From: a virus
Lineage: Duplodnaviria; Heunggongvirae; Uroviricota; Caudoviricetes
Reading direction: 5' to 3' (one strand)
Virus record (IMG/VR): IMGVR_UViG_2617270997_000007
Coordinates: 1-12,167 of that record
DNA length: 12,167 nt
Shown here: piece after piece, positions 374-11,297 of the stretch
Layout: each line of letters starts with the position of its first letter
Numbering within the stretch: the first letter of the stretch is position 1
Made by a program: the position numbers and the translations under genes
The notes under the pieces: model-generated
The model's input: the letters and a program-made list of their open reading frames with translations, nothing else
What the model was told of the DNA's origin: nothing
The model's database searches: none

Positions 374-781
374 TTACTGATGTTTGTTACGTTTGCGAGC
401 TTCTAGTAGCTCGGTGAATAGGCGATTAAAATTCTCAACGCGGGCACGGAGTTCGCTGATTTGTGCTTGCTGCTCTGATTTTGGAAGTGCGCGATACAAT
501 CGCAACATCTCCAACTCATCTTCCGATAAGTCTAAGGCGCTGTTGAGTGCTACTGGTGGATCTGGTGTTTTATCCTCGTCACCAAACAGTATCCAAGTTG
601 GTGAACATTGCAATACCTCAGCCAGGCGATGCAAATTTTGCCCGCGCGGGGCTGTATGGTCGCTTTCCCATAGTGAAATTGATGAGCCAGATACGCCAGC
701 GGCTTTGCTTAAATCGTTTTGACTTAAACCAACCTGTTTGCGTCTTTCTCTAATTCGTTGACCTAAAGTTTTCTCGTTCAT
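374..781 (-). CDS. dicA: HTH (XRE-family) prophage repressor, DicA-like, 135 aa, no peptidase S24 domain
   Basis: Complete ORF, MNEKTLGQRIRERRKQVGLSQNDLSKAAG... with the motif LQCSPTWILFGDEDK that I recall from E. coli DicA (also 135 aa). Divergent from a Cro-like gene. Too short to carry a LexA-like autocleavage domain. Confidence 0.8.
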   Translation of the reverse strand: MNEKTLGQRIRERRKQVGLSQNDLSKAAGVSGSSISLWESDHTAPRGQNLHRLAEVLQCSPTWILFGDEDKTPDPPVALNSALDLSEDELEMLRLYRALPKSEQQAQISELRARVENFNRLFTELLEARKRNKHQ

Positions 782-3906: not shown

Positions 3907-4299
3907 ATGGCAAAAGTATTTACACCAGAAGAGCGGGAAGAAGTGAAGGCGCGCATTGTGGAATTCGTGCGCCTGAGCGGACGAGAAACTTTTCGACAAC
4001 TGGCAGATAAAACGGGTGTCAGTAAGACCGCTATTCGTCGTTTATCTGGTGCGCTTGCGGCCAGTGGTGATGTCTGGCTCTCTGGTTGCGGGGTATTTCC
4101 ATCAGAGCAGGCGTATCGCGTATGGCGTAAGACACCGGAGAAGGCTGCTGACCCGACACTGATTCGAAAGTTACCTGACGGAGAAATACGTCGTTACAAC
4201 AGACGGCAGAACATAATTTTTCGTGAGTGCCGCCAGAGCGAAGTTATGCAGCGTGTGCTGGCGTTCTATCGGGGAAACTTTCAGGAGGTGATGGAGTGA
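3907..4299 (+). CDS. Hypothetical protein with an HTH-like segment (130 aa)
   Basis: ATG 3907 with GGAGG 5 nt upstream; the track ORF starts at TTG 3892. Contains FRQLADKTGVSKTAIRRL. Its stop TGA 4297-4299 overlaps the next gene's GTG start. Confidence 0.55.
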   Translation: MAKVFTPEEREEVKARIVEFVRLSGRETFRQLADKTGVSKTAIRRLSGALAASGDVWLSGCGVFPSEQAYRVWRKTPEKAADPTLIRKLPDGEIRRYNRRQNIIFRECRQSEVMQRVLAFYRGNFQEVME

Positions 4300-4592
4300 G
4301 GGTCAGAGTTTATATTGCCGGTCCAATGACGGGATATGAAAATTTCAACCGTGAGGCGTTTCACAAGGCGGAAGAGGAACTGAAACGGGAAGGGCATACC
4401 GTCTTAAACCCGGCAGTACTTCCGGACGGGCTGACACAGCCGCACTACATGGATATTTGCATGGCAATGATTCGTTGTGTGGATGCGATTTACATGCTGA
4501 ATGGCTGGCAGCGGTCAGCGGGCGCTAAGGCAGAGCTGGCACTGGCGGAGAAACTGGGGCATGCAGTGATTTATCAGGAGGTGGCTCAATGA
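4296..4592 (+). CDS. DUF4406 / nucleoside 2-deoxyribosyltransferase-like small protein (98 aa)
   Basis: GTG 4296 with AGGAGG 7 nt upstream and a GTGA start/stop overlap. Motif VYIAGPMTGYENFN, then a conserved acidic region, as in the deoxyribosyltransferase/Rcl-like fold. Assignment is from motif memory. Confidence 0.55.
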   Translation: MRVRVYIAGPMTGYENFNREAFHKAEEELKREGHTVLNPAVLPDGLTQPHYMDICMAMIRCVDAIYMLNGWQRSAGAKAELALAEKLGHAVIYQEVAQ

Positions 4593-5056
4593 GAGAGGTT
4601 AACTATGAGGCGCTTCGTGAGGCAGCACAAAACTATCAGTCGACGCTGGCGTGGTATCAGGCTATCCCGGACAGCCCAAATGCTGAACGGGATTGTGATG
4701 CGGCTCTTGCTGCATTTAAGCGTCACATCCGTCATCGGGAAGCGGATATTATCGCTGATTTGCTGGATGGACTGGAAGAAGCAAAATCACAACTCAAAGA
4801 GCAGCGTGAGTATTACGAAGGCGTTATCTCTGATGGGAGCAAGCGTATTGCTGAACTGGAAGCGCGGGAAGTTCAATTACCGACTCGCTACGACCTTCGA
4901 TATGGACACCCGATAAATGCAGATGAGCGACATGTCATGATACCTAAAGAAAATGGCAGTTGGCTTTACCTGATTGACCTAGAACACGCATTACGCGTCT
5001 CTGGCATTCGCATCAAAGGAGAGGAGCATGGAAATAAAACCCAGAGGATGAGTTAA
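4589..5056 (+). CDS. Hypothetical phage protein with a predicted coiled-coil region (155 aa)
   Basis: ATG 4589 overlaps the upstream stop (ATGA), with GGAGG upstream. No recognisable catalytic motif. Confidence 0.6.
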   Translation: MREVNYEALREAAQNYQSTLAWYQAIPDSPNAERDCDAALAAFKRHIRHREADIIADLLDGLEEAKSQLKEQREYYEGVISDGSKRIAELEAREVQLPTRYDLRYGHPINADERHVMIPKENGSWLYLIDLEHALRVSGIRIKGEEHGNKTQRMS

Positions 5057-5086
5057 GCAATATCGTTTTATTTCCGGTAAAAGAGG

Positions 5087-5385
5087 ATGACCCTCGTAAT
5101 CAGGTTAATTTTCTTTATGAGCCATCGGAAAGACCATATTGTCATCACGCCTCTGTCCGGGTTGACGAAAAAGAGCGTCAGGTCCGCTGTAAAATCTGCG
5201 GTGCAGTTGTGGAGCCATTTGACTGGATGCTCTCTGTGGCGAAAAGAGAAACCAGACTGGCAGATGATGTAAGGCACTTGCGCCAGGAGGAGCGGGAAAG
5301 GCGAAAAAATATAGAAAAGCTAATTCAGATTGAGCGTAACGCGAAAGCGCGGATACGCAGGGCGACAAAATCCAGAACTGAATAA
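5087..5385 (+). pseudogene. Zinc-ribbon/coiled-coil ORF with a disrupted start: open frame 5038-5385 has no ATG/GTG/TTG before 5209. Possible frameshift at the T-run 5109-5116 or non-canonical initiation
   Basis: Frame-1 translation is protein-like over about 115 codons: ...NQVNFLYEPSERPYCHHASVRVDEKERQVRCKICGAVVEPFDWMLSVAKRETRLADDVRHLRQEERERRKNIEKLIQIERNAKARIRRATKSRTE*. It fills an otherwise empty 420-bp gap in a tightly packed operon. The only upstream ATG (5087) is in another frame. Confidence 0.3.
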
Positions 5386-5454
5386 TTAAATTTAGCTCTG
5401 TTAAAAATTTAATCCTTAACCGGAGGGATTTCTGCACCCTCAGAACATCAGGAG

Positions 5455-5472
5455 GCCGCCCGAAAGGGCGGT
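5455..5472 (+). promoter_or_regulatory. GC-rich hairpin with GAAA loop between the Shine-Dalgarno AGGAGG (5450-5455) and the ATG at 5479
   Basis: Stem ccgccc (5456-5461), loop gaaa, stem gggcgg (5466-5471), plus a possible G-U closing pair 5455/5472. No U-tract follows, so it is not a typical terminator. Folding would bring the SD from 23 nt to about 7 nt from the start codon. Confidence 0.35.
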
Positions 5473-5478
5473 AGTTAA

Positions 5479-5661
5479 ATGCGAAAGTTTAAAATAATTA
5501 TTGAAACGGGAATAGCCGGTGGAGATTTCGAGGATGAATTCGAAGTGGATGATGATGCGACGCCTGATGAAATACATGACGAAGCAAAAGATATTTTCTT
5601 TAACTACTGCAATTACTCATATCACGAAATAAAAGACGAAGAGGAAGAGCAAAATGGCTGA
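5479..5661 (+). CDS. Small, highly acidic protein (60 aa)
   Basis: MRKFKIIIETGIAGGDFEDEFEVDDDATPDEIHDEAKDIFFNYCNYSYHEIKDEEEEQNG: about 40% Asp/Glu. Complete ORF in the coupled operon. Confidence 0.55.
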   Translation: MRKFKIIIETGIAGGDFEDEFEVDDDATPDEIHDEAKDIFFNYCNYSYHEIKDEEEEQNG

Positions 5662-5830
5662 TTTTGGTTCAACTAAATACAACGTCAGTTTTGAAGCATG
5701 GCATGAACTGTTAATGGACTATGCAGAGTTACGTGGTGGCAGTGCTGCTGATGCTGAAGCATGGCGTGATGATTATGAAGCAGGAAAAACTCCGGTCGAA
5801 GCATATTGTGATGAGTGGGGCGATGAATGA
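5654..5830 (+). CDS. Small acidic protein (58 aa), not in the supplied ORF track
   Basis: ATG 5654 with GAGGAAG 6 nt upstream, overlapping the previous stop. Translation MADFGSTKYNVSFEAWHELLMDYAELRGGSAADAEAWRDDYEAGKTPVEAYCDEWGDE*. Its stop TGA 5828-5830 overlaps the next ATG at 5827 (ATGA). Confidence 0.45.
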   Translation: MADFGSTKYNVSFEAWHELLMDYAELRGGSAADAEAWRDDYEAGKTPVEAYCDEWGDE

Positions 5831-6342
5831 GCGAGATTAATTATCAGGAAGGGCATGAAACGGCAGGGCAGGCAAAACCAGTTGCATGGCGATATCGCTA
5901 CGTGAAAAAAGACGTTACAGACTTTCAGGGGAAGCCGTGGGCTGGTGACTGGAAATATGTACCGACAAAAGAGGATTGTAACGACAGGCCGAACTATGAA
6001 ATTCAGGCCTTATTCATCGGCCCGCCAGTCCCGGTGACATCAGAAGGACTGGTTAAAGCCGTGCGCTTTTATGAACAGGTAAAGCGTGAGAATCCGCCAG
6101 TCGAAACAGGAGCATGGAAGGATGCTGTTGACTGGGTGCTCAGAGAGGCCTGCTGCGCTGCCATTCTGGGTAAAGCCGACAATCCACCAGCATCCGGCAA
6201 TCAGGTTAGCGAATTAACAATGTGGGTTAAACGACTGGTCAGTCAACTGAAAAAAGCTCAGCCGGACTGCAAATTACCGGAGAAGGCGATGGATTACCTG
6301 AAACGAAATGGACTGATAAGCGTGGAGGATGTTTTACGATGA
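5827..6342 (+). CDS. Hypothetical phage protein (171 aa), last gene of the coupled operon
   Basis: Complete ORF with ATGA coupling to the upstream small ORF. No recognisable motif. Confidence 0.6.
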   Translation: MSEINYQEGHETAGQAKPVAWRYRYVKKDVTDFQGKPWAGDWKYVPTKEDCNDRPNYEIQALFIGPPVPVTSEGLVKAVRFYEQVKRENPPVETGAWKDAVDWVLREACCAAILGKADNPPASGNQVSELTMWVKRLVSQLKKAQPDCKLPEKAMDYLKRNGLISVEDVLR

Positions 6343-6462
6343 ATATTTAGACTAAAGAGTTTGTAACGCTATGTAAGTGATTTTTTCTGGTTTAGATATT
6401 TATATGTTCGGCCAAATTGAGGTGTGTTTAAATGTTATTGCACATTGATTGTAGGGGGAATA

Positions 6463-6642
6463 ATGAAAAACGCATTGCAGTTTTTGTTTGTTGCGTTCTG
6501 GTTGTTCGCATCATGTATGCCCATCATCTTCACAGCAAGGTATATGGAAAAAATTGATGTTTTGATATTAATGTTTGGACATATAAATGCCCTTTTTTTA
6601 GGGGTGTTCATGGCGGTCATGTGCATTGAATACTGGCGGTAA
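6463..6642 (+). CDS. Small hydrophobic membrane protein (59 aa, two predicted TM helices) in an AT-rich moron
   Basis: ATG 6463 with GGGGGA just upstream; the track ORF starts at GTG 6424. Sequence MKNALQFLFVAFWLFASCMPIIFTARYMEKIDVLILMFGHINALFLGVFMAVMCIEYWR. The surrounding region 6343-6660 is visibly AT-rich compared with its neighbours. Confidence 0.45.
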   Translation: MKNALQFLFVAFWLFASCMPIIFTARYMEKIDVLILMFGHINALFLGVFMAVMCIEYWR

Positions 6643-6784
6643 ATACAGCGAACGCCATTGGTTTAGTTGGATATTTACTGTGCCGGACAAAAACGGTTTG
6701 CGGGGAAATCTTAGTTAAGTAGAATAACTGCGGGTGCTTGAGGCTATCTGTCTCAGGCATGAACACCAAAAGGCAGATAGAGAA

Positions 6785-6851
6785 AAGCCCCAGTTAACAT
6801 TACGCGTCCTGCAAGACGCTTAACATTAATCTGAGGCCATATCTATGCGAC
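6785..6851 (-). ncRNA. sok: Sok-like antisense RNA of the hok locus (approximate position)
   Basis: Expected by analogy with hok/sok loci. A candidate - strand promoter has TTGACC (complement of 6882-6887), an 18-bp spacer and TAATCT (complement of 6858-6863), directing transcription leftward across the hok leader. The 3' end is not defined. Confidence 0.25.
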
Positions 6852-6904
6852 ACATAGAGATTAGCCTCTTACGGACCGAAAGGTCAAGGAGAAGCAGGCT
6901 ATGA
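6845..6904 (+). CDS. Mok-like short upstream ORF (19 codons) coupled to hok
   Basis: ATG 6845, translation MRHIEISLLRTERSRRSRL*, with stop TGA 6902-6904 overlapping the hok ATG (ATGA). Too short to judge on composition alone. Confidence 0.25.
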   Translation: MRHIEISLLRTERSRRSRL

Positions 6905-7056
6905 AGCAGCAAAAGGCGATGTTAATCGCCCTGATCGTCATCTGTTTAACCGTCATAGTGACGGCACTGGTAACGAGGAAAGACCTCTGCGAGGTACGAA
7001 TCCGAACCGGCCAGACGGAGGTCGCTGTCTTCACAGCTTACGAACCTGAGGAGTAA
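6901..7056 (+). CDS. hokD: Hok/Gef-family type I toxin (51 aa), HokD/RelF-like
   Basis: Translation MKQQKAMLIALIVICLTVIVTALVTRKDLCEVRIRTGQTEVAVFTAYEPEE*, which matches Hok-family toxins and, as far as I recall, E. coli HokD closely. AAGGAG lies 9 nt upstream. Absent from the ORF track because it is under 60 aa. Confidence 0.85.
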   Translation: MKQQKAMLIALIVICLTVIVTALVTRKDLCEVRIRTGQTEVAVFTAYEPEE

Positions 7057-7126
7057 GAGACCCGGCGAGGGAGAAATCCCTCGCCACCTCTGATGTGGCA
7101 GGCATTCTCAACGCACCCGCACTTAA

Positions 7127-7150
7127 CCCGCTTCGGCGGGTTTTTGTTTT
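7127..7150 (+). terminator. Rho-independent terminator at the 3' end of the hok transcript
   Basis: Stem cccgc / loop ttcg / stem gcggg followed by tttttgttttt. A separate perfect 9-bp hairpin (ggcgaggga-gaaa-tccctcgcc, 7064-7085) lies just after the hok stop and may be the 3' fold-back element of hok mRNA. Confidence 0.75.
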
Positions 7151-7272
7151 TATTTTCAACGCATTTGAAGTTCTGGACGGTGCCGGAATAGAATCAAAAA
7201 TACTTAAGTAGCGCGCAGGGATAAGAGGGATGGTCCCTTAAAGGGGAGAGCTAATTATCCGGAAGGATTCTG

Positions 7273-7524
7273 ATGATGAACATCGAAGAACTGCGTAAAA
7301 TTTTTTGTGAAGATGGCCTCTATGCTGTGTGCGTTGAAAATGGAAATATTGTTAGTCATTACCGCATTGTGTGTTTGCAAAAAAATGGGGCTGCGTTAAT
7401 TAATTTTGTGGATGCCCGAGTGACGGACGGATTTATCTTGCGCGACGGTGAGTTTGTCACTTCATTACAGGTATTGAAAGAGATCGGAATAAAAGCTGGC
7501 TTTTCTGCTTTTTCAGAAGAATAA
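7273..7524 (+). CDS. rem: Rem-like small protein (83 aa)
   Basis: Complete ORF with GGAAGGA 5 nt upstream of ATGATG. Same size and position (between hok and the DUF968 gene) as rem in the K-12 Qin prophage. Symbol is from synteny and size, not sequence recall. Confidence 0.4.
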   Translation: MMNIEELRKIFCEDGLYAVCVENGNIVSHYRIVCLQKNGAALINFVDARVTDGFILRDGEFVTSLQVLKEIGIKAGFSAFSEE

Positions 7525-8929: not shown

Positions 8930-9304
8930 ATGCTCATAGATTTGGTTTTACCTTACCCGCCGACGGTGAACACTTACTGGCGACGCCGTGGCAGCACATA
9001 TTTTATCTCGGAGGAGGGAAAGCGTTATCGCCGGGCTGTGGCGCTTATTGTTTGCCAGCAGCGGCTGAAATTAAGCCTGTCCGGAAGGCTGGCGATAAAG
9101 GTGATTGCAGAGCCACCGGATAAGCGTCGTCGCGACCTGGACAATATCCTGAAAGCACCGCTGGATGCGCTGACGCATGCGGGAGTGTTAATGGACGATG
9201 AGCAGTTTGATGAAATCAATATCGTTCGTGGTCAGCCAGTATCTGGTGGACGTCTGGGGGTGAAGATTTACCCCATAATGCATGAAGAGCAGGTCAAAAA
9301 ATGA
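8930..9304 (+). CDS. rusA: RusA crossover-junction endodeoxyribonuclease (Holliday junction resolvase), 124 aa
   Basis: Motifs PYPPTVNTYWRRRG, RRRDLDNILKAPLDALT and MDDEQ line up with the RusA signature (WPPSNNRYY, RRRDLDN, DD.Q). AGAGGTGA upstream. Confidence 0.85.
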   Translation: MLIDLVLPYPPTVNTYWRRRGSTYFISEEGKRYRRAVALIVCQQRLKLSLSGRLAIKVIAEPPDKRRRDLDNILKAPLDALTHAGVLMDDEQFDEINIVRGQPVSGGRLGVKIYPIMHEEQVKK

Positions 9305-10122
9305 AACTGGAAGATTTACCGAAATACTACTCCCCAAAATCCCCTGGCCTGACCGATGCATCGGCCTCAACGTCAAAAGATGCGCTGAGTATCACTGATG
9401 TGATGGCCGCGCAGGGCATGACACAGAATCGGGCTGAGATGGGTTTTTCTGCGTTCCTGGGGAAAATGGGCATCAGTATGAATGACAGGGTGCGGGCAAC
9501 AGAATTACTGGCAGATTATGCACTCAGTCGGTGCGATCGTGTGGCGGCGTTGAGAAAACTTCCGGCAGAAATAAAACCGGTAGTGATGCGCATTATGGCT
9601 TCGTACGCTTTTGAGGATTATGCCCGCAGCGCAGCGAGTAAAAAGCAGTGCCCTTGTTGCTATGGGGAAAAATTTATTGAAAGCATAGTTTTTACAAACA
9701 AGGTCCAGTATCCGGATGGTAAGCCGCCGGTATGGGCAAAGTGTACGAAAGGTGTGTATCCGTCTTACTGGGAAGAATGGAAAAAAGTCAGGGAGGTGGT
9801 AAAAGTTGCCTGTCCGGAGTGTGGCGGAAAGGGTGAGGTTTCCACCGCCTGTAAGGATTGCCGTGGGCGTGGTGTCGCCATTCACCGTGAAGAGTCGGTA
9901 AAACGTGGTATGCCTGTTATCAGAGACTGCCAGCGTTGTGGTGGTCGTGGCTATGAAAGACTACCATCAACGGAGGCATTTAATGCTATATGCGAGGTGA
10001 CAAACCAGATAACACGCGCGTCATGGGAAAAAACAGTTAAGAAATTCTATGATGCGCTGGTGACCCGGTTTGATATTGAAGAAGCATGGGCTGAGCGGCA
10101 GTTAAAAAAGGTAACTAGGTAA
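9301..10122 (+). CDS. Late-gene antitermination protein Q-like (273 aa) with CxxC zinc fingers
   Basis: ATG 9301 overlaps the rusA stop (ATGA). Cys-rich C-terminal region CPECGGKGEVSTACKDCRGRG...CQRCGGRGY. Sits directly upstream of a lambda-type PR', the canonical Q position. Confidence 0.6.
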   Translation: MKLEDLPKYYSPKSPGLTDASASTSKDALSITDVMAAQGMTQNRAEMGFSAFLGKMGISMNDRVRATELLADYALSRCDRVAALRKLPAEIKPVVMRIMASYAFEDYARSAASKKQCPCCYGEKFIESIVFTNKVQYPDGKPPVWAKCTKGVYPSYWEEWKKVREVVKVACPECGGKGEVSTACKDCRGRGVAIHREESVKRGMPVIRDCQRCGGRGYERLPSTEAFNAICEVTNQITRASWEKTVKKFYDALVTRFDIEEAWAERQLKKVTR

Positions 10123-10264: not shown

Positions 10265-10340
10265 CGGCCCTTTAGCTCAGTGGTGAGAGCGAGCGACTCA
10301 TAATCGCCAGGTCGCTGGTTCAAATCCAGCAAGGGCCACC
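10265..10340 (+). tRNA. ileZ: tRNA-Ile2 (anticodon CAU, lysidine type; formally also readable as Met), 76 nt with encoded CCA
   Basis: Cloverleaf folded by hand: acceptor ggccctt/aagggcc, D-stem gctc/gagc, anticodon loop ctCATaa, T-arm gctgg-ttcaaat-ccagc, discriminator A, CCA. Near-identical to E. coli ileX as recalled. Confidence 0.85.
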
Positions 10341-10347
10341 ATCACAT

Positions 10348-10424
10348 ACCGCCATTAGCTCATCAGGAAAGAGCGCCAGCCTTCGAAGCTGGTTGCGCGG
10401 AGTTCGGGTCCCCGAAGGCGGTCC
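10348..10424 (+). tRNA. argN: tRNA-Arg (anticodon UCG), 77 nt, with non-canonical features
   Basis: Anticodon arm ccagc-ctTCGaa-gctgg is perfect and D-stem gctc/gagc is good. The acceptor stem has one A-A mismatch at pair 6, the T-stem has one A-C mismatch, and the T-loop is ttcgggt (G where the conserved A58 is expected). CCA is encoded. Confidence 0.6.
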
Positions 10425-10437
10425 ATTATCTGTATCC

Positions 10438-10514
10438 TGCGTTGTTAGCTCAGCCGGACAGAGCAATTGCCTTCTAAGCAATCGGTCACTGGTTCGAATC
10501 CAGTACAACGCGCC
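10438..10514 (+). tRNA. argO: tRNA-Arg (anticodon UCU), 77 nt with encoded CCA
   Basis: Clean cloverleaf: acceptor gcgttgt/acaacgc, D-stem gctc/gagc, anticodon arm attgc-ctTCTaa-gcaat, T-arm actgg-ttcgaat-ccagt, discriminator G, CCA. Confidence 0.85.
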
Positions 10515-10529
10515 ACACTTATTTTCCCT

Positions 10530-10552
10530 GGCTCGCTTTTGCGGGCTTTTTT
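10530..10552 (+). terminator. Rho-independent terminator after the tRNA cluster
   Basis: Stem ggctcgc (with one G-U pair), loop tttt, stem gcgggc, followed by a 7-nt T-run. Confidence 0.6.
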
Positions 10553-10557
10553 TTAAA

Positions 10558-10770
10558 TGTCTCACAATTCAGGCGGTTGACTGTTGTCTGGTTTGCGGGG
10601 AGTTTGTTAAAAGAAACTGGCATGGTGAATCCCCCTGTGCGGAGGGGCAATCAGCGAGTAGGTATATGGGATAATCGCGGATTCAGGTGCTGGTACTGAA
10701 TTCACCGGGAGGCACCCGGCACCATGCAATGGCACATAGCGCCACTCTCCAGCCCCTCTCCGGAGGGGCT
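10558..10770 (+). repeat. Structured repeat module A: promoter-like -35, two conserved GC hairpins and a terminal terminator hairpin (candidate small RNA or leader cassette)
   Basis: Shares ordered blocks with module B: ctcacaattcag; TTGACT (10574-10579); tttgttaaaa; hairpin cccct-gtgcgg-agggg (10629-10644); hairpin ccggg-aggca-cccgg (10702-10716) followed by ATG; terminator gcccctc-tccg-gaggggc (10749-10766) plus tttt. Confidence 0.6.
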
Positions 10771-10964
10771 TTTCTGTGCCGGATACATCACAGTTTCTGG
10801 AACCTTAGGTACTACAGTATCAGTCAGGGTGCTATATTTTCAGATGTGATGAAAGCCTGTCAGCAGGCAGGGCGTATCGGAAATGACCCAGTAGAGAAAA
10901 CGTTGACTCAGATACCGGTGCTGAGTTACCGGGAAACCGGCATCACATGACCGCTATCCTTCCA

Positions 10965-10991
10965 GGCCCATCCGCTCCGGTGGGCCTTTTT
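10965..10991 (+). terminator. Rho-independent terminator between the two repeat modules
   Basis: Stem ggccca (10965-10970), 10-nt loop, stem tgggcc (10981-10986), then ttttt. It closes a short unit containing a possible 33-codon ORF at 10849-10950, which has no convincing Shine-Dalgarno and is not called. Confidence 0.45.
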
Positions 10992-11028
10992 ACTGCAGAA
11001 AACAGGTTCCCCGTTAAATGCTATGTTG

Positions 11029-11262
11029 CTCACAATTCAGTAAGTTGACAGTTGCCTGTCAGACTGGGCATTTGTTAAAAAAATTTCGCATGGTGAATCC
11101 CCCTGAGCGGAGGGGCGACTGGTGACGGTATAATCTCTGATTATCAAAACGAGAATGACGCGGGTTTAGTGGCACCGGGCTGAACTCACCGGGAGGCACC
11201 CGGCACCATGTGCATGATGATACAGATACGCGGCTTTAGCCCCTCTCCGGAGGGGCTTTCTT
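11029..11262 (+). repeat. Structured repeat module B, paralogous to module A
   Basis: Same blocks in the same order: ctcacaattcag (11029-11040); TTGACA (11045-11050); tttgttaaaa; hairpin ccccctgagcggagggg; a TATAAT at 11129-11134; caccgggaggcacccggcaccATG; terminator gcccctc-tccg-gaggggc (11239-11256) plus T-tract. It has about 20 bp of insertion relative to A. Confidence 0.6.
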
Positions 11263-11267
11263 ATGGA

Positions 11268-11297
11268 CAAAAAAAGCCCGCGCTGGGAGACGCGGGC
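11268..11297 (-). terminator. Minus-strand intrinsic terminator immediately after module B
   Basis: On the + strand an A7 tract (11269-11275) precedes the hairpin gcccgcg-ctgggaga-cgcgggc (11276-11297). Read on the - strand this is hairpin plus U-tract. No convincing - strand gene lies upstream of it. Confidence 0.4.

What the first reader, a model, noticed from the sequence alone, without database searches (positions are those of the whole stretch)
5479..5830. Pair of tiny, strongly acidic proteins: candidate DNA-mimic or anti-defence factors
Directly visible: two adjacent coupled ORFs of 60 and 58 aa, both dominated by Asp/Glu (for example DFEDEFEVDDDATPDEIHDEAKD and KDEEEEQNG; AEAWRDDYEAGKTPVEAYCDEWGDE). 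Established knowledge: small acidic phage proteins such as Ocr and ArdA-like proteins act as DNA mimics or inhibit host defence and DNA-binding proteins. The first gene also has an unusual hairpin between its Shine-Dalgarno and start codon.
Basis: inference. Interest (0 to 1): 0.55.

Follow-up and report, generated by a model that had tools for sequence, protein, structure and literature searches.

The report
Two small acidic prophage accessory proteins
Two real, very acidic 60- and 58-residue proteins of unknown function travel as one small cassette in E. coli lambdoid prophages. They are reasonable but untested candidates for inhibitors of host enzymes, and nothing links them to any known DNA mimic or anti-defence family.

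Summary
ORF1 (5479-5661, 60 aa, net charge -15) and ORF2 (5654-5830, 58 aa, net -11) are the most acidic products in the window. They overlap by 8 nt, and ORF2 overlaps the next gene by 4 nt. A stable hairpin sits between ORF1's AGGAGG and its ATG.

Both genes look real: they are under purifying selection, AlphaFold2 folds them with confidence, and their acidity is conserved across each family. ORF1 belongs to Pfam DUF7167. ORF2 is the core of phrog_519 and has no Pfam family.

The two families occur separately in virulent phages and other prophages. ORF2 relatives also sit on IncI2 plasmids, including the mcr-1 plasmid pHNSHP45. The pairing is therefore an E. coli mosaic cassette, not an obligate two-part system.

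Sequence, profile and fold searches found no link to Ocr, ArdA, T7 gp5.9, Gp2 or any solved structure. The anti-defence reading is neither refuted nor supported beyond circumstance.

The hairpin fits the T4 gene 38/25 "split Shine-Dalgarno" design, cutting a 23-nt spacing to 6-7 nt.

Interest is moderate to low: good screening candidates, nothing demonstrably new.

The parts
5440..5870 (+). Minimal mosaic cassette: Shine-Dalgarno sequence, hairpin, ORF1 and ORF2. It is shared between otherwise different prophage backgrounds.
   Evidence: In blastn of window 4001-7500 against 89 related loci, left homology boundaries cluster at 5440-5450 (10 loci) and right boundaries at 5820-5870 (10 loci). 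Phage hits begin at about 5378 or end at about 5848.
5450..5455 (+). AGGAGG Shine-Dalgarno sequence of ORF1, 23 nt upstream of the ATG in the linear sequence.
   Evidence: It is kept even where the sequence upstream of it is replaced.
5455..5472 (+). RNA hairpin G-CCGCCC / GAAA / GGGCGG-U (7 bp, GNRA tetraloop) between the Shine-Dalgarno sequence and the start codon. With the stem formed, the effective spacing is 6-7 nt.
   Evidence: Free energy -15.5 kcal/mol, z = -2.7. Among 200 copies matched by pattern (not deduplicated; distinct copies are about 80), 185 are fully paired. These include C-to-U changes that keep G.U pairs, a GAAA-to-GGCA loop that is still GNRA, and one compensatory G-C to A-U change (4 copies) whose A.C intermediate is also seen (7 copies). 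The other 15 copies carry mismatches.
5479..5661 (+). ORF1: 60 aa, DUF7167 (PF23768) / phrog_1997, net charge -15. Predicted beta-hairpin (2-8, 17-23) plus an amphipathic helix (29-43) with an acidic face, and a disordered acidic tail.
5641..5645 (+). GAGGA Shine-Dalgarno-like motif 8 nt before the ORF2 ATG, lying inside the ORF1 acidic tail codons.
   Evidence: Read directly from the sequence.
5654..5830 (+). ORF2: 58 aa, core of phrog_519, no Pfam family, net charge -11. Predicted three-helix bundle (13-26, 35-42, 47-55) with a conserved aromatic core (F13, W16, W37, Y41; W/F/Y at 55).
5827..6342 (+). Downstream gene (171 aa, phrog_660) whose ATG overlaps the ORF2 stop (ATGA). This is context, not part of the cassette; it is replaced by other genes in other prophages.

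Best explanation
ORF1 and ORF2 are two independent, genuinely expressed small acidic accessory proteins of the lambdoid early-right ('nin'/'ea'-type) gene array. In E. coli prophages they happen to be fixed together as one roughly 430-bp mosaic cassette.

The cassette has no promoter or terminator of its own. It is read from the early rightward transcript.
- ORF1 is initiated through a split Shine-Dalgarno sequence. The stable GNRA hairpin loops out 16-18 nt and brings AGGAGG to 6-7 nt from the AUG, as in T4 genes 38 and 25.
- ORF2 and the following gene are translated by coupling through overlapping stop and start codons.

Each protein most likely acts stoichiometrically, not as an enzyme. 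It would bind a basic, nucleic-acid-binding surface of a host or competitor protein through its conserved acidic face and so block or redirect it. Candidate targets are a nuclease, a restriction or other defence complex, or a nucleoid or replication protein. This makes them host-takeover or anti-defence decoys.

Shown: coding status, conserved acidity, the predicted folds, cassette mobility and the hairpin anatomy.
Inferred: expression timing, the hairpin's role in translation, and the whole binding/inhibition step, including the target.
For: Real genes:
- DUF7167 match at 55 bits against a cut-off of 24.4.
- phrog_1997 at E = 9e-31 and phrog_519 at E = 2e-22.
- pN/pS of 0.06-0.18 in most divergent alleles.
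- pLDDT 88.5 and 79.7.

Acidity is a family trait, not a local quirk. Median net charge is -12 and -11. In ORF1, 11 acidic columns (E9, D19, E22, D24-26, D30, E31, E35, D38, E50) are acidic in at least 80% of 41 diverse members. The ORF1 helix 29-43 places D30, E31, D34, E35 and D38 on one face.

Both proteins are too small for enzymes and carry no DNA-binding motif.

The distribution is typical of accessory or counter-defence genes:
- DNA matching 5400-5900 occurs in 2521 of 5426 complete E. coli genomes, 1741 of them over at least 80% of that stretch.
- ORF1 relatives occur in Klebsiella Guernseyvirinae, Enterococcus Herelleviridae, Phapecoctavirus and P22-like prophages.
- ORF2 relatives occur in Ackermannviridae, Autographiviridae, Enterobacter prophages and 561 plasmids, 516 of them conjugative, including IncI2 pHNSHP45.

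In Guernseyvirinae the ORF1 relative overlaps the start of the DUF2800/PD-(D/E)XK nuclease gene, inside the nuclease, ssDNA-binding protein and polymerase module. T7 gp5.9, the acidic RecBCD-inhibiting DNA mimic, is arranged the same way before gene 6 exonuclease.

The cassette has no sigma-70-like promoter on its own strand and no terminator-like site within 5000-6500.

Split Shine-Dalgarno sequence: geometry and stability, conservation with one compensatory change, and the T4 precedent of 22 to 5 nt and 27 to 11 nt (PMC3014915). Distant ORF1 relatives without the hairpin have an ordinary GGAGG 5-8 nt from the ATG.
Against: No target, phenotype or expression data exist for either family.

Many small phage proteins are acidic without being mimics.

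The neighbourhood signal is weak. Early phage operons are full of DNA-metabolism genes anyway. The Enterococcus 'exonuclease' neighbour is really an ASCH/DUF3850 protein. In Vi01 the ORF2 relative lies just after the major capsid gene, which is not an obviously early position.

About a quarter of distinct cassette copies carry premature stops, so the genes are dispensable in resident prophages.

Fifteen of 200 hairpin copies have mismatches, yet their ORFs are intact.
Confidence: 0.35

Rival explanations
1. The proteins are accessory factors of the phage's own DNA replication or recombination machinery. They would bind and regulate the phage nuclease, ssDNA-binding protein or polymerase through acidic patches or tails, much as ssDNA-binding proteins use an acidic C-terminal tail. 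They would not target host defences.
For: ORF1 relatives sit inside replication or recombination modules:
- Nmad5, unknown gene, DUF7167, DUF2800 nuclease, unknown gene, Enc34-type ssDNA-binding protein, then DNA polymerase after two small ORFs, in Guernseyvirinae.
- Arf, Erf, SSB, unknown gene, Dam, DUF7167, theta, in a P22-like prophage.
- Between the O/P-like replication genes and RusA in this window.

The ORF1 family ends in a short acidic tail.
Against: The gene is absent from most phages that carry the same modules. It moves as a mosaic cassette between unrelated flanks. It also occurs in arrays of small unknown genes with no replication genes nearby, in Phapecoctavirus, PsgM04F and L106/L107. 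ORF2 relatives on IncI2, IncU and IncT plasmids and after the capsid gene in Vi01 are not in replication modules.
Confidence: 0.2
2. The proteins modulate the lysis-lysogeny decision or host physiology, like the small lambda exo-xis region proteins. They would tune prophage maintenance, induction or the host cell cycle, not counter defence.
For: They lie in the early operon among Ead/Ea22, DUF551-like, DUF977 and DUF1627 genes, whose lambdoid relatives are non-essential 'ea'/'nin' genes. In Enterobacter prophages the ORF2 relative lies directly after Ead/Ea22, either before xis-int or in the nin region. The cassette is very common in resident E. coli prophages.
Against: Both families are also present in strictly virulent phages, which have no lysogeny decision: Ackermannviridae, Herelleviridae, Guernseyvirinae and Autographiviridae. 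ORF2 is also on conjugative plasmids.
Confidence: 0.15
3. ORF1 and ORF2 form an obligate two-subunit complex, a single functional unit, as the reader's word 'pair' implies.
For: The offset between the two starts was 175 nt in 83 of 84 E. coli-type loci and 174 nt in the other. They overlap by 8 nt and move together as a minimal cassette.
Against: Outside E. coli and Shigella the families are never seen together:
- In six more distant loci carrying an ORF1 relative, from Klebsiella, Enterococcus and Pseudomonas phages or genomes and a Bacilli MAG, tblastn found no ORF2 relative.
- ORF2 relatives follow DUF1187, Ead/Ea22 or other genes.
- Homology to the window starts exactly at the ORF2 ATG in those contexts.

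The 84 loci are nearly all close copies of one cassette, so they do not count as independent evidence.
Confidence: 0.1
4. They are decaying or selfish ORFs with no function, and the hairpin is an incidental GC-rich palindrome.
For: About a quarter of distinct cassette copies carry premature stops. No function is known. Some hairpin variants have mismatches.
Against: Both are under purifying selection. Both families are conserved across distant phage groups and bacterial phyla at 35-50% identity with the same length. Fold predictions are confident. Acidic and aromatic columns are conserved.
Confidence: 0.05

Closest known systems
Pfam DUF7167 (PF23768) / PHROG phrog_1997
   Same: ORF1 is a full-length member: residues 2-53 cover the whole 60-position model at 55 bits, and NCBI names it 'DUF7167 family protein'.
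   Different: Nothing sets it apart. The family itself has no assigned function, and a full-text search found no paper mentioning it.
PHROG phrog_519 (uncharacterised; predicted as anti-CRISPR by PaCRISPR in Kuttervirus, PMC9409062)
   Same: ORF2 matches profile positions 76-137 of 143 at E = 2e-22. The Vi01-type and plasmid relatives have the same length and the same conserved F/W/W/Y core.
   Different: No Pfam family covers it. The anti-CRISPR label is only a machine-learning score, not an experiment.
T7 gp5.9 (52-aa acidic DNA mimic that inhibits RecBCD)
   Same: Similar size and strongly acidic. In Guernseyvirinae the ORF1 relative overlaps the start of the phage nuclease gene, just as gene 5.9 overlaps gene 6.
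   Different: No sequence or profile similarity (hhalign probability 0.02%). In this window there is no adjacent nuclease gene.
Ocr (T7 gp0.3) and ArdA DNA-mimic anti-restriction proteins
   Same: Strongly acidic phage or plasmid proteins of early or accessory regions, which work by occupying DNA-binding sites.
Split Shine-Dalgarno sites of T4 genes 38 and 25
   Same: An SD-like sequence lies too far from the AUG (23 nt here; 22 and 27 nt in T4). A stable hairpin lies wholly in between and restores a functional spacing (6-7 nt here; 5 and 11 nt in T4) (PMC3014915).
   Different: The phage, gene and sequence are unrelated, and the role is not tested experimentally here. The variation is shallow, with one compensatory change.
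Small non-essential 'ea'/'nin'/exo-xis genes of lambdoid phages (Ead/Ea22, Ea8.5, Orf60a/61/63, NinE and others)
   Same: Same genomic niche, size range, mosaic inheritance and dispensability.
   Different: No homology to any of them. Unlike those genes, both families also occur in virulent phages.

Membership tests
Pfam DUF7167 (PF23768) | Score above the curated gathering threshold over the full model | tested here: met
   55.1 bits against a cut-off of 24.4; residues 2-53 match model positions 1-60 of 60. NCBI annotates it as 'DUF7167 family protein'.
PHROG phrog_519 (ORF2) | Significant full-length match of the protein to the family profile | tested here: met
   E = 2e-22; residues 1-58 match profile positions 76-137 of 143. 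The Vi01 relative matches the same part. The N-terminal 75 profile positions are not the DUF1187 domain.
Ocr (T7 gp0.3) anti-restriction family | Sequence or profile homology to Ocr | tested here: not met
   No Pfam hit at E <= 1. hhalign of the ORF1 family against T7 gp0.3 gives probability 0.08%.
ArdA anti-restriction family | Sequence homology to the ArdA Pfam family, or a matching fold | tested here: not met
T7 gp5.9-like RecBCD inhibitors | Sequence or profile homology to gp5.9 | tested here: not met
   hhalign probability 0.02% for ORF1 and 0.3% for ORF2.
T7 gp5.9-like RecBCD inhibitors | Gene placed immediately before, and overlapping, the phage exonuclease gene | tested here: inconclusive
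   Met for ORF1 relatives in Klebsiella Guernseyvirinae. Not met in this window or in other contexts.
DNA-mimic proteins (functional class) | Strong net negative charge, conserved across the family | tested here: met
   Net -15 and -11. Family medians are -12 and -11, with conserved acidic columns.
DNA-mimic proteins (functional class) | Exposed carboxylates arranged with the spacing of DNA backbone phosphates | not testable with these tools
   Model coordinates are not exposed. Only the secondary structure is returned. The helix periodicity places D30/E31/D34/E35/D38 on one face, which is suggestive at most.
DNA-mimic proteins (functional class) | Binds the DNA-binding site of a target protein and competes with DNA | not testable with these tools
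   This needs pull-down or competition assays, or multimer structure prediction.
Known anti-phage defence components (PADLOC) | Match to any defence-system protein model | tested here: not met
   No hit at E <= 1.
Split Shine-Dalgarno initiation site (T4 gene 38/25 type) | A strong SD-like sequence too far from the AUG for direct use | tested here: met
   AGGAGG at 5450-5455 and the AUG at 5479: 23 nt between them.
Split Shine-Dalgarno initiation site (T4 gene 38/25 type) | A stable hairpin entirely between the SD and the AUG that restores a 5-11 nt spacing | tested here: met
   Hairpin at 5455-5472, -15.5 kcal/mol; 6-7 nt remain.
Split Shine-Dalgarno initiation site (T4 gene 38/25 type) | Structure conserved through covariation | tested here: inconclusive
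   Of 200 copies, 185 are fully paired. There is one G-C to A-U compensatory change and several changes that keep G.U pairs, but 15 copies have mismatches and the overall diversity is low.
Split Shine-Dalgarno initiation site (T4 gene 38/25 type) | Stem-destabilising mutations reduce translation and compensatory mutations restore it | not testable with these tools
   This needs reporter fusions.

The most novel reading that the evidence does not exclude
DUF7167 (ORF1) and the phrog_519 core (ORF2) are two previously unrecognised families of miniature acidic decoy inhibitors. Phages, and for ORF2 conjugative plasmids such as the mcr-1 IncI2 backbone, would use them to neutralise a host nuclease or defence complex. 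One candidate target is RecBCD or a restriction or BREX-type system, with ORF1 as a functional analogue of T7 gp5.9. A cassette carried by roughly a third to a half of E. coli genomes would then be a hidden reservoir of anti-defence genes.
Probability: 0.2. Interest if true: 0.6.

Novelty: new member of a known kind. Interest (0 to 1): 0.33.

Why it matters
If either protein is an inhibitor of a host nuclease or defence system, it would add a new, very small family to the anti-defence repertoire. That family would already be present in a large share of E. coli genomes, in therapeutic-type virulent phages (Kuttervirus, Taipeivirus-like Klebsiella phages, Enterococcus Herelleviridae) and, for ORF2, on the IncI2 plasmids that spread mcr-1. 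It would be relevant to phage host range and to plasmid establishment.

The hairpin would be a further natural example, outside the T-even phages, of a split Shine-Dalgarno site. It would also be a caution for gene callers and expression predictors that score SD-AUG spacing linearly.

If they are not inhibitors, these are simply two more small unknown 'nin/ea' genes.

Tried and rejected
- **Homology to solved structures.** phmmer and profile searches of the PDB gave nothing significant. The best was a compositional match of the ORF1 profile to designed proteins and uL23 at E around 1e-3 to 2e-2, which I do not credit.
- **Family libraries.** NCBIfam and PADLOC gave no hits. No Pfam family covers any of 33 ORF2 relatives.
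- **Literature.** Searches for DUF7167, the Pfam accession, protein accessions and PHROG numbers found nothing except a PaCRISPR prediction.
- **phrog_519 as a DUF1187-ORF2 fusion.** Rejected. DUF1187 belongs to phrog_5753, and the 127-aa 'fusion' P0179 looks like a frameshift artefact.
- **DUF7167 regularly next to exonucleases.** Only the Guernseyvirinae case stands. The Enterococcus 'exonuclease' is ASCH/DUF3850, and other contexts have no nuclease.
- **Hairpin as terminator or known RNA.** No T-run, no terminator call and no Rfam match. The CCC-GAAA-GGG core loosely recalls lambda boxB, but there is no boxA-like sequence upstream and the position is wrong for a nut site, so I dropped this.
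- **The upstream stem 5423-5441.** Natural variants break it, so I do not count it as a feature.
- **Genome-collection scan for diverse ORF1 loci.** It returned only 4 loci. The viral-contig scan returned 80 near-identical E. coli copies, which were useful for cassette boundaries but not for diversity.

Full report
**1. What is in the sequence**

The window is the early-right region of a lambdoid (Qin/Rac/Stx-like) E. coli prophage. In order it holds:
- a cI-like repressor (374-781, minus strand) and a cro-like gene;
- a YdaT-like gene;
- an O-like gene with a DnaT domain, and a lambda P-like gene;
- DUF1627, DUF977 and DUF4406 genes;
- Ead/Ea22 (4589-5056);
- a 58-aa basic ORF (5209-5385);
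- the two ORFs of the finding;
- a 171-aa phrog_660 gene;
- sok/hok;
- DUF968, RusA and antiterminator Q;
- three tRNAs and two STnc100 sRNA copies.

ORF1 is 5479-5661 (60 aa) and ORF2 is 5654-5830 (58 aa). Their net charges are -15 and -11 and their pI is about 4.05. The other 20 ORFs I took as genes range from -6 to +12.

ORF1 and ORF2 overlap by 8 nt (ATGGCTGA). ORF2 and the next gene overlap by 4 nt (ATGA).

AGGAGG (5450-5455) is followed by a 7-bp hairpin with a GAAA loop (5455-5472). Its free energy is -15.5 kcal/mol, and 2 of 200 shuffles fold as well. Six more bases follow, then the ATG. An in-frame TAA just before the ATG excludes a longer ORF.

**2. Are they genes?**

Yes, on four grounds.
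- ORF1 matches Pfam DUF7167 over the full model, at 55 bits against a cut-off of 24.4, and also matches phrog_1997. ORF2 matches the core of phrog_519.
- For the more divergent E. coli alleles, pN/pS is 0.06-0.12 for ORF1 and 0.07-0.18 for ORF2 in four of five alleles with pS above 0.05 (0.47 in the fifth).
- AlphaFold2 gives confident small folds. ORF1 (pLDDT 88.5) is a beta-hairpin (2-8, 17-23) packed against a helix (29-43), with a disordered acidic tail. ORF2 (pLDDT 79.7) is a three-helix bundle.
- Both families keep the same length and motifs at 35-50% identity in very distant hosts.

NCBI annotates them as 'DUF7167 family protein' (WP_001224662.1) and 'hypothetical protein' (WP_000753058.1). 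Source names in the large protein collection say only 'prophage protein' or 'hypothetical'.

**3. Acidity is a conserved family property**

Across 41 ORF1 relatives the median net charge is -12. Eleven columns are acidic in at least 80% of members (E9, D19, E22, D24-26, D30, E31, E35, D38, E50). Across 33 ORF2 relatives the median is -11.

In ORF2 the most conserved positions are aromatic core residues (F13, W16, W37, Y41; W/F/Y at 55), with acidic positions around them.

**4. Distribution, and whether this is a 'pair'**

DNA matching 5400-5900 is present in 2521 of 5426 complete E. coli genomes, and 1741 of them hold at least 80% of that stretch.

In 83 of 84 E. coli-type loci the two starts are 175 nt apart, and 174 nt in the other. 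Homology breakpoints define a minimal mosaic unit of about 5440-5870. The Shine-Dalgarno sequence and hairpin therefore travel with the genes, while the flanking genes differ.

Outside E. coli and Shigella the families separate.
- ORF1 relatives occur without ORF2 in:
  - a Klebsiella temperate phage;
  - Klebsiella Guernseyvirinae, where the gene overlaps the start of the DUF2800/PD-(D/E)XK nuclease gene in the nuclease, Enc34-type ssDNA-binding protein and polymerase module;
  - Enterococcus Herelleviridae;
  - Phapecoctavirus and a Pseudomonas phage;
  - a P22-like prophage, between Dam and theta and downstream of Erf-SSB.
- ORF2 relatives occur without ORF1 in:
  - Ackermannviridae, just after the major capsid gene;
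  - an Autographivirus and a Lastavirus;
  - Enterobacter prophages, directly after Ead/Ea22 in either early operon;
  - 561 plasmids, 516 of them conjugative. About 420 of these are roughly 60-kb IncI2 plasmids at 86% identity, including the mcr-1 plasmid pHNSHP45. There the gene follows a DUF1187/RcbA-like gene with the same ATGGCTGA overlap. Large IncU and IncT plasmids carry it in arrays of small unknown genes.

Homology to the window begins exactly at the ORF2 ATG in those contexts.

In a scan of 1.8 billion cluster representatives, ORF2 has only 58 related clusters at E <= 1e-3, nearly all stand-alone proteins of 50-65 aa.

I conclude that these are two independent accessory genes. E. 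coli prophages inherit them as one cassette, but they are not an obligate two-component system.

**5. Tests of the DNA-mimic / anti-defence reading**

All direct tests were negative or not possible.
- No Pfam, NCBIfam or PADLOC match to any characterised family at E <= 1.
- No PDB relative by sequence or profile.
- BFVD returns only uncharacterised phage proteins.
- hhalign against T7 Ocr, Gp2 and gp5.9 gives probabilities below 1%.
- There is no literature on either family, apart from a PaCRISPR score that labelled phrog_519 proteins of Kuttervirus as candidate anti-CRISPRs. That is a prediction only (PMC9409062).
- Model coordinates are not exposed, so the decisive geometric test, carboxylate spacing on the surface, could not be run.

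What remains in favour is circumstantial:
- small size and conserved acidity;
- an acidic face on the ORF1 helix;
- occurrence in accessory arrays of virulent and temperate phages and conjugative plasmids;
- mosaic mobility;
- the Guernseyvirinae arrangement, which mirrors T7 gene 5.9 and gene 6.

**6. Most likely mechanism**

I commit, at about 0.35 confidence, to the following model.
- The cassette is read from the early rightward transcript. No promoter-like site on its strand and no terminator-like site lies within 5000-6500.
- ORF1 initiates through a split Shine-Dalgarno site.
- ORF2 and the next gene are coupled through overlapping stop and start codons.
- Each protein acts stoichiometrically as an acidic decoy on a basic, nucleic-acid-binding surface of a host or competitor protein.

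The rivals are:
- an accessory role in the phage's own replication or recombination (0.2);
- modulation of lysogeny or host physiology, like the lambda exo-xis genes (0.15), weakened by the families' presence in virulent phages and plasmids;
- an obligate ORF1-ORF2 complex (0.1), weakened by their separate distribution;
- junk (0.05), contradicted by selection and conservation.

**7. The hairpin**

Its anatomy matches the split Shine-Dalgarno sites of T4 genes 38 and 25. In those, an intervening structure reduces 22 nt to 5 and 27 nt to 11, and destabilising mutations lower translation (PMC3014915). Here 23 nt become 6-7.

Among 200 copies matched by pattern in viral contigs, 185 are fully paired. 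The copies are not deduplicated, and distinct contexts number about 80. The variants include:
- C-to-U changes that keep G.U pairs;
- a GAAA-to-GGCA loop, which is still a GNRA tetraloop;
- one compensatory G-C to A-U change (4 copies), with its A.C intermediate also present (7 copies).

The other 15 copies have mismatches but intact ORFs. Distant ORF1 relatives lack the hairpin and have an ordinary GGAGG 5-8 nt from the ATG.

The structure is real and plausibly functional. The covariation evidence is thin, and the role in translation is an inference.

**8. Novelty and score**

ORF1 belongs to an already catalogued family of unknown function, and ORF2 to a catalogued PHROG. No new kind of system is demonstrated. 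If they are inhibitors, they would be new families within a known kind: small acidic phage or plasmid decoys.

They are sensible candidates for anti-defence screens, because they are so widespread and because ORF2 sits on the mcr-1 IncI2 backbone. The present evidence does not lift them above many other small acidic phage ORFs of unknown function. Interest: 0.33.

Noticed in passing
window 6732-7056: A hok/sok-type type I toxin-antitoxin locus: the sok antitoxin RNA (Rfam RF01794, 107 bits) at 6732-6903 and a 51-aa Hok-like ORF at 6901-7056.
   Followed up: partly
window 10266-11268: Directly after antiterminator Q (9301-10122) lie tRNA-Met, tRNA-Arg(tcg) and tRNA-Arg(tct) at 10266-10515. Two copies of the sRNA STnc100 follow at 10591-10781 and 11059-11268. 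The tRNA cluster after Q recalls the late-region start of Stx-type lambdoid phages (from my own knowledge, not tested here).
   Followed up: partly
L093 (pHNSHP45, NZ_KP347127.1) 1090-1474; L099 5586-6183: An ORF2 homologue (86% identity) sits on about 420 IncI2 plasmids, including the mcr-1 plasmid pHNSHP45. The local order is CaiF/GrlA-like regulator, DUF1187/RcbA-like gene, ORF2 homologue, SPFH, NfeD. Homology with the window starts exactly at ATGGCTGA, and that same octamer again supplies the stop codon of the unrelated upstream gene, both there and on an IncU plasmid.
   Followed up: partly
PP818812.1 (Actinobacillus phage vB_Apl-pPE4) 11316-11940; L006 (Collinsella MAG contig): A phage recorded as infecting Actinobacillus pleuropneumoniae and a MAG binned as Collinsella both carry the E. 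coli cassette, the phage at 95% nucleotide identity and the MAG contig at 98% identity to ORF1. These look like mis-assigned or contaminating E. coli prophage DNA.
   Followed up: no
IMG/VR loci L010-L192 (cassette copies): About a quarter of the distinct cassette copies have premature stops or lost starts in ORF1 or ORF2. Examples are the ATA start in 'phage Rac' MN652886 and truncations to 36, 45 or 57 aa. This is consistent with decay in cryptic prophages.
   Followed up: partly
L005 2471-3013 (Enterococcus phage vB_EfaM_Ef2.1); L105 3513-4013: The gene annotated 'exonuclease (ACLAME 70)' just upstream of the DUF7167 homologue in Enterococcus Herelleviridae appears, from its counterpart in the near-identical metagenomic locus L105, to hit Pfam ASCH/DUF3850 rather than a nuclease family. 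The deposited annotation is doubtful.
   Followed up: partly
P0076 (E. coli, 72 aa); P0179 (127 aa); P0123 (84 aa): Odd ORF2 variants in public data:
- P0076 carries a 14-residue internal tandem duplication (DDYEAGKTPVEAYC twice).
- P0179 is a frameshift fusion of DUF1187 and ORF2. It has made a 90%-identity cluster mix the two families under the name 'DUF1187'.
- P0123 is a chimera with a SIS-domain N-terminus.
   Followed up: no
window 5423-5441: A second possible stem (GAGGG-N9-CCCTC) lies upstream of the Shine-Dalgarno sequence. Natural variants (CCTTC, CCATC, GATGG) break it, so it is probably not a conserved structure.
   Followed up: yes
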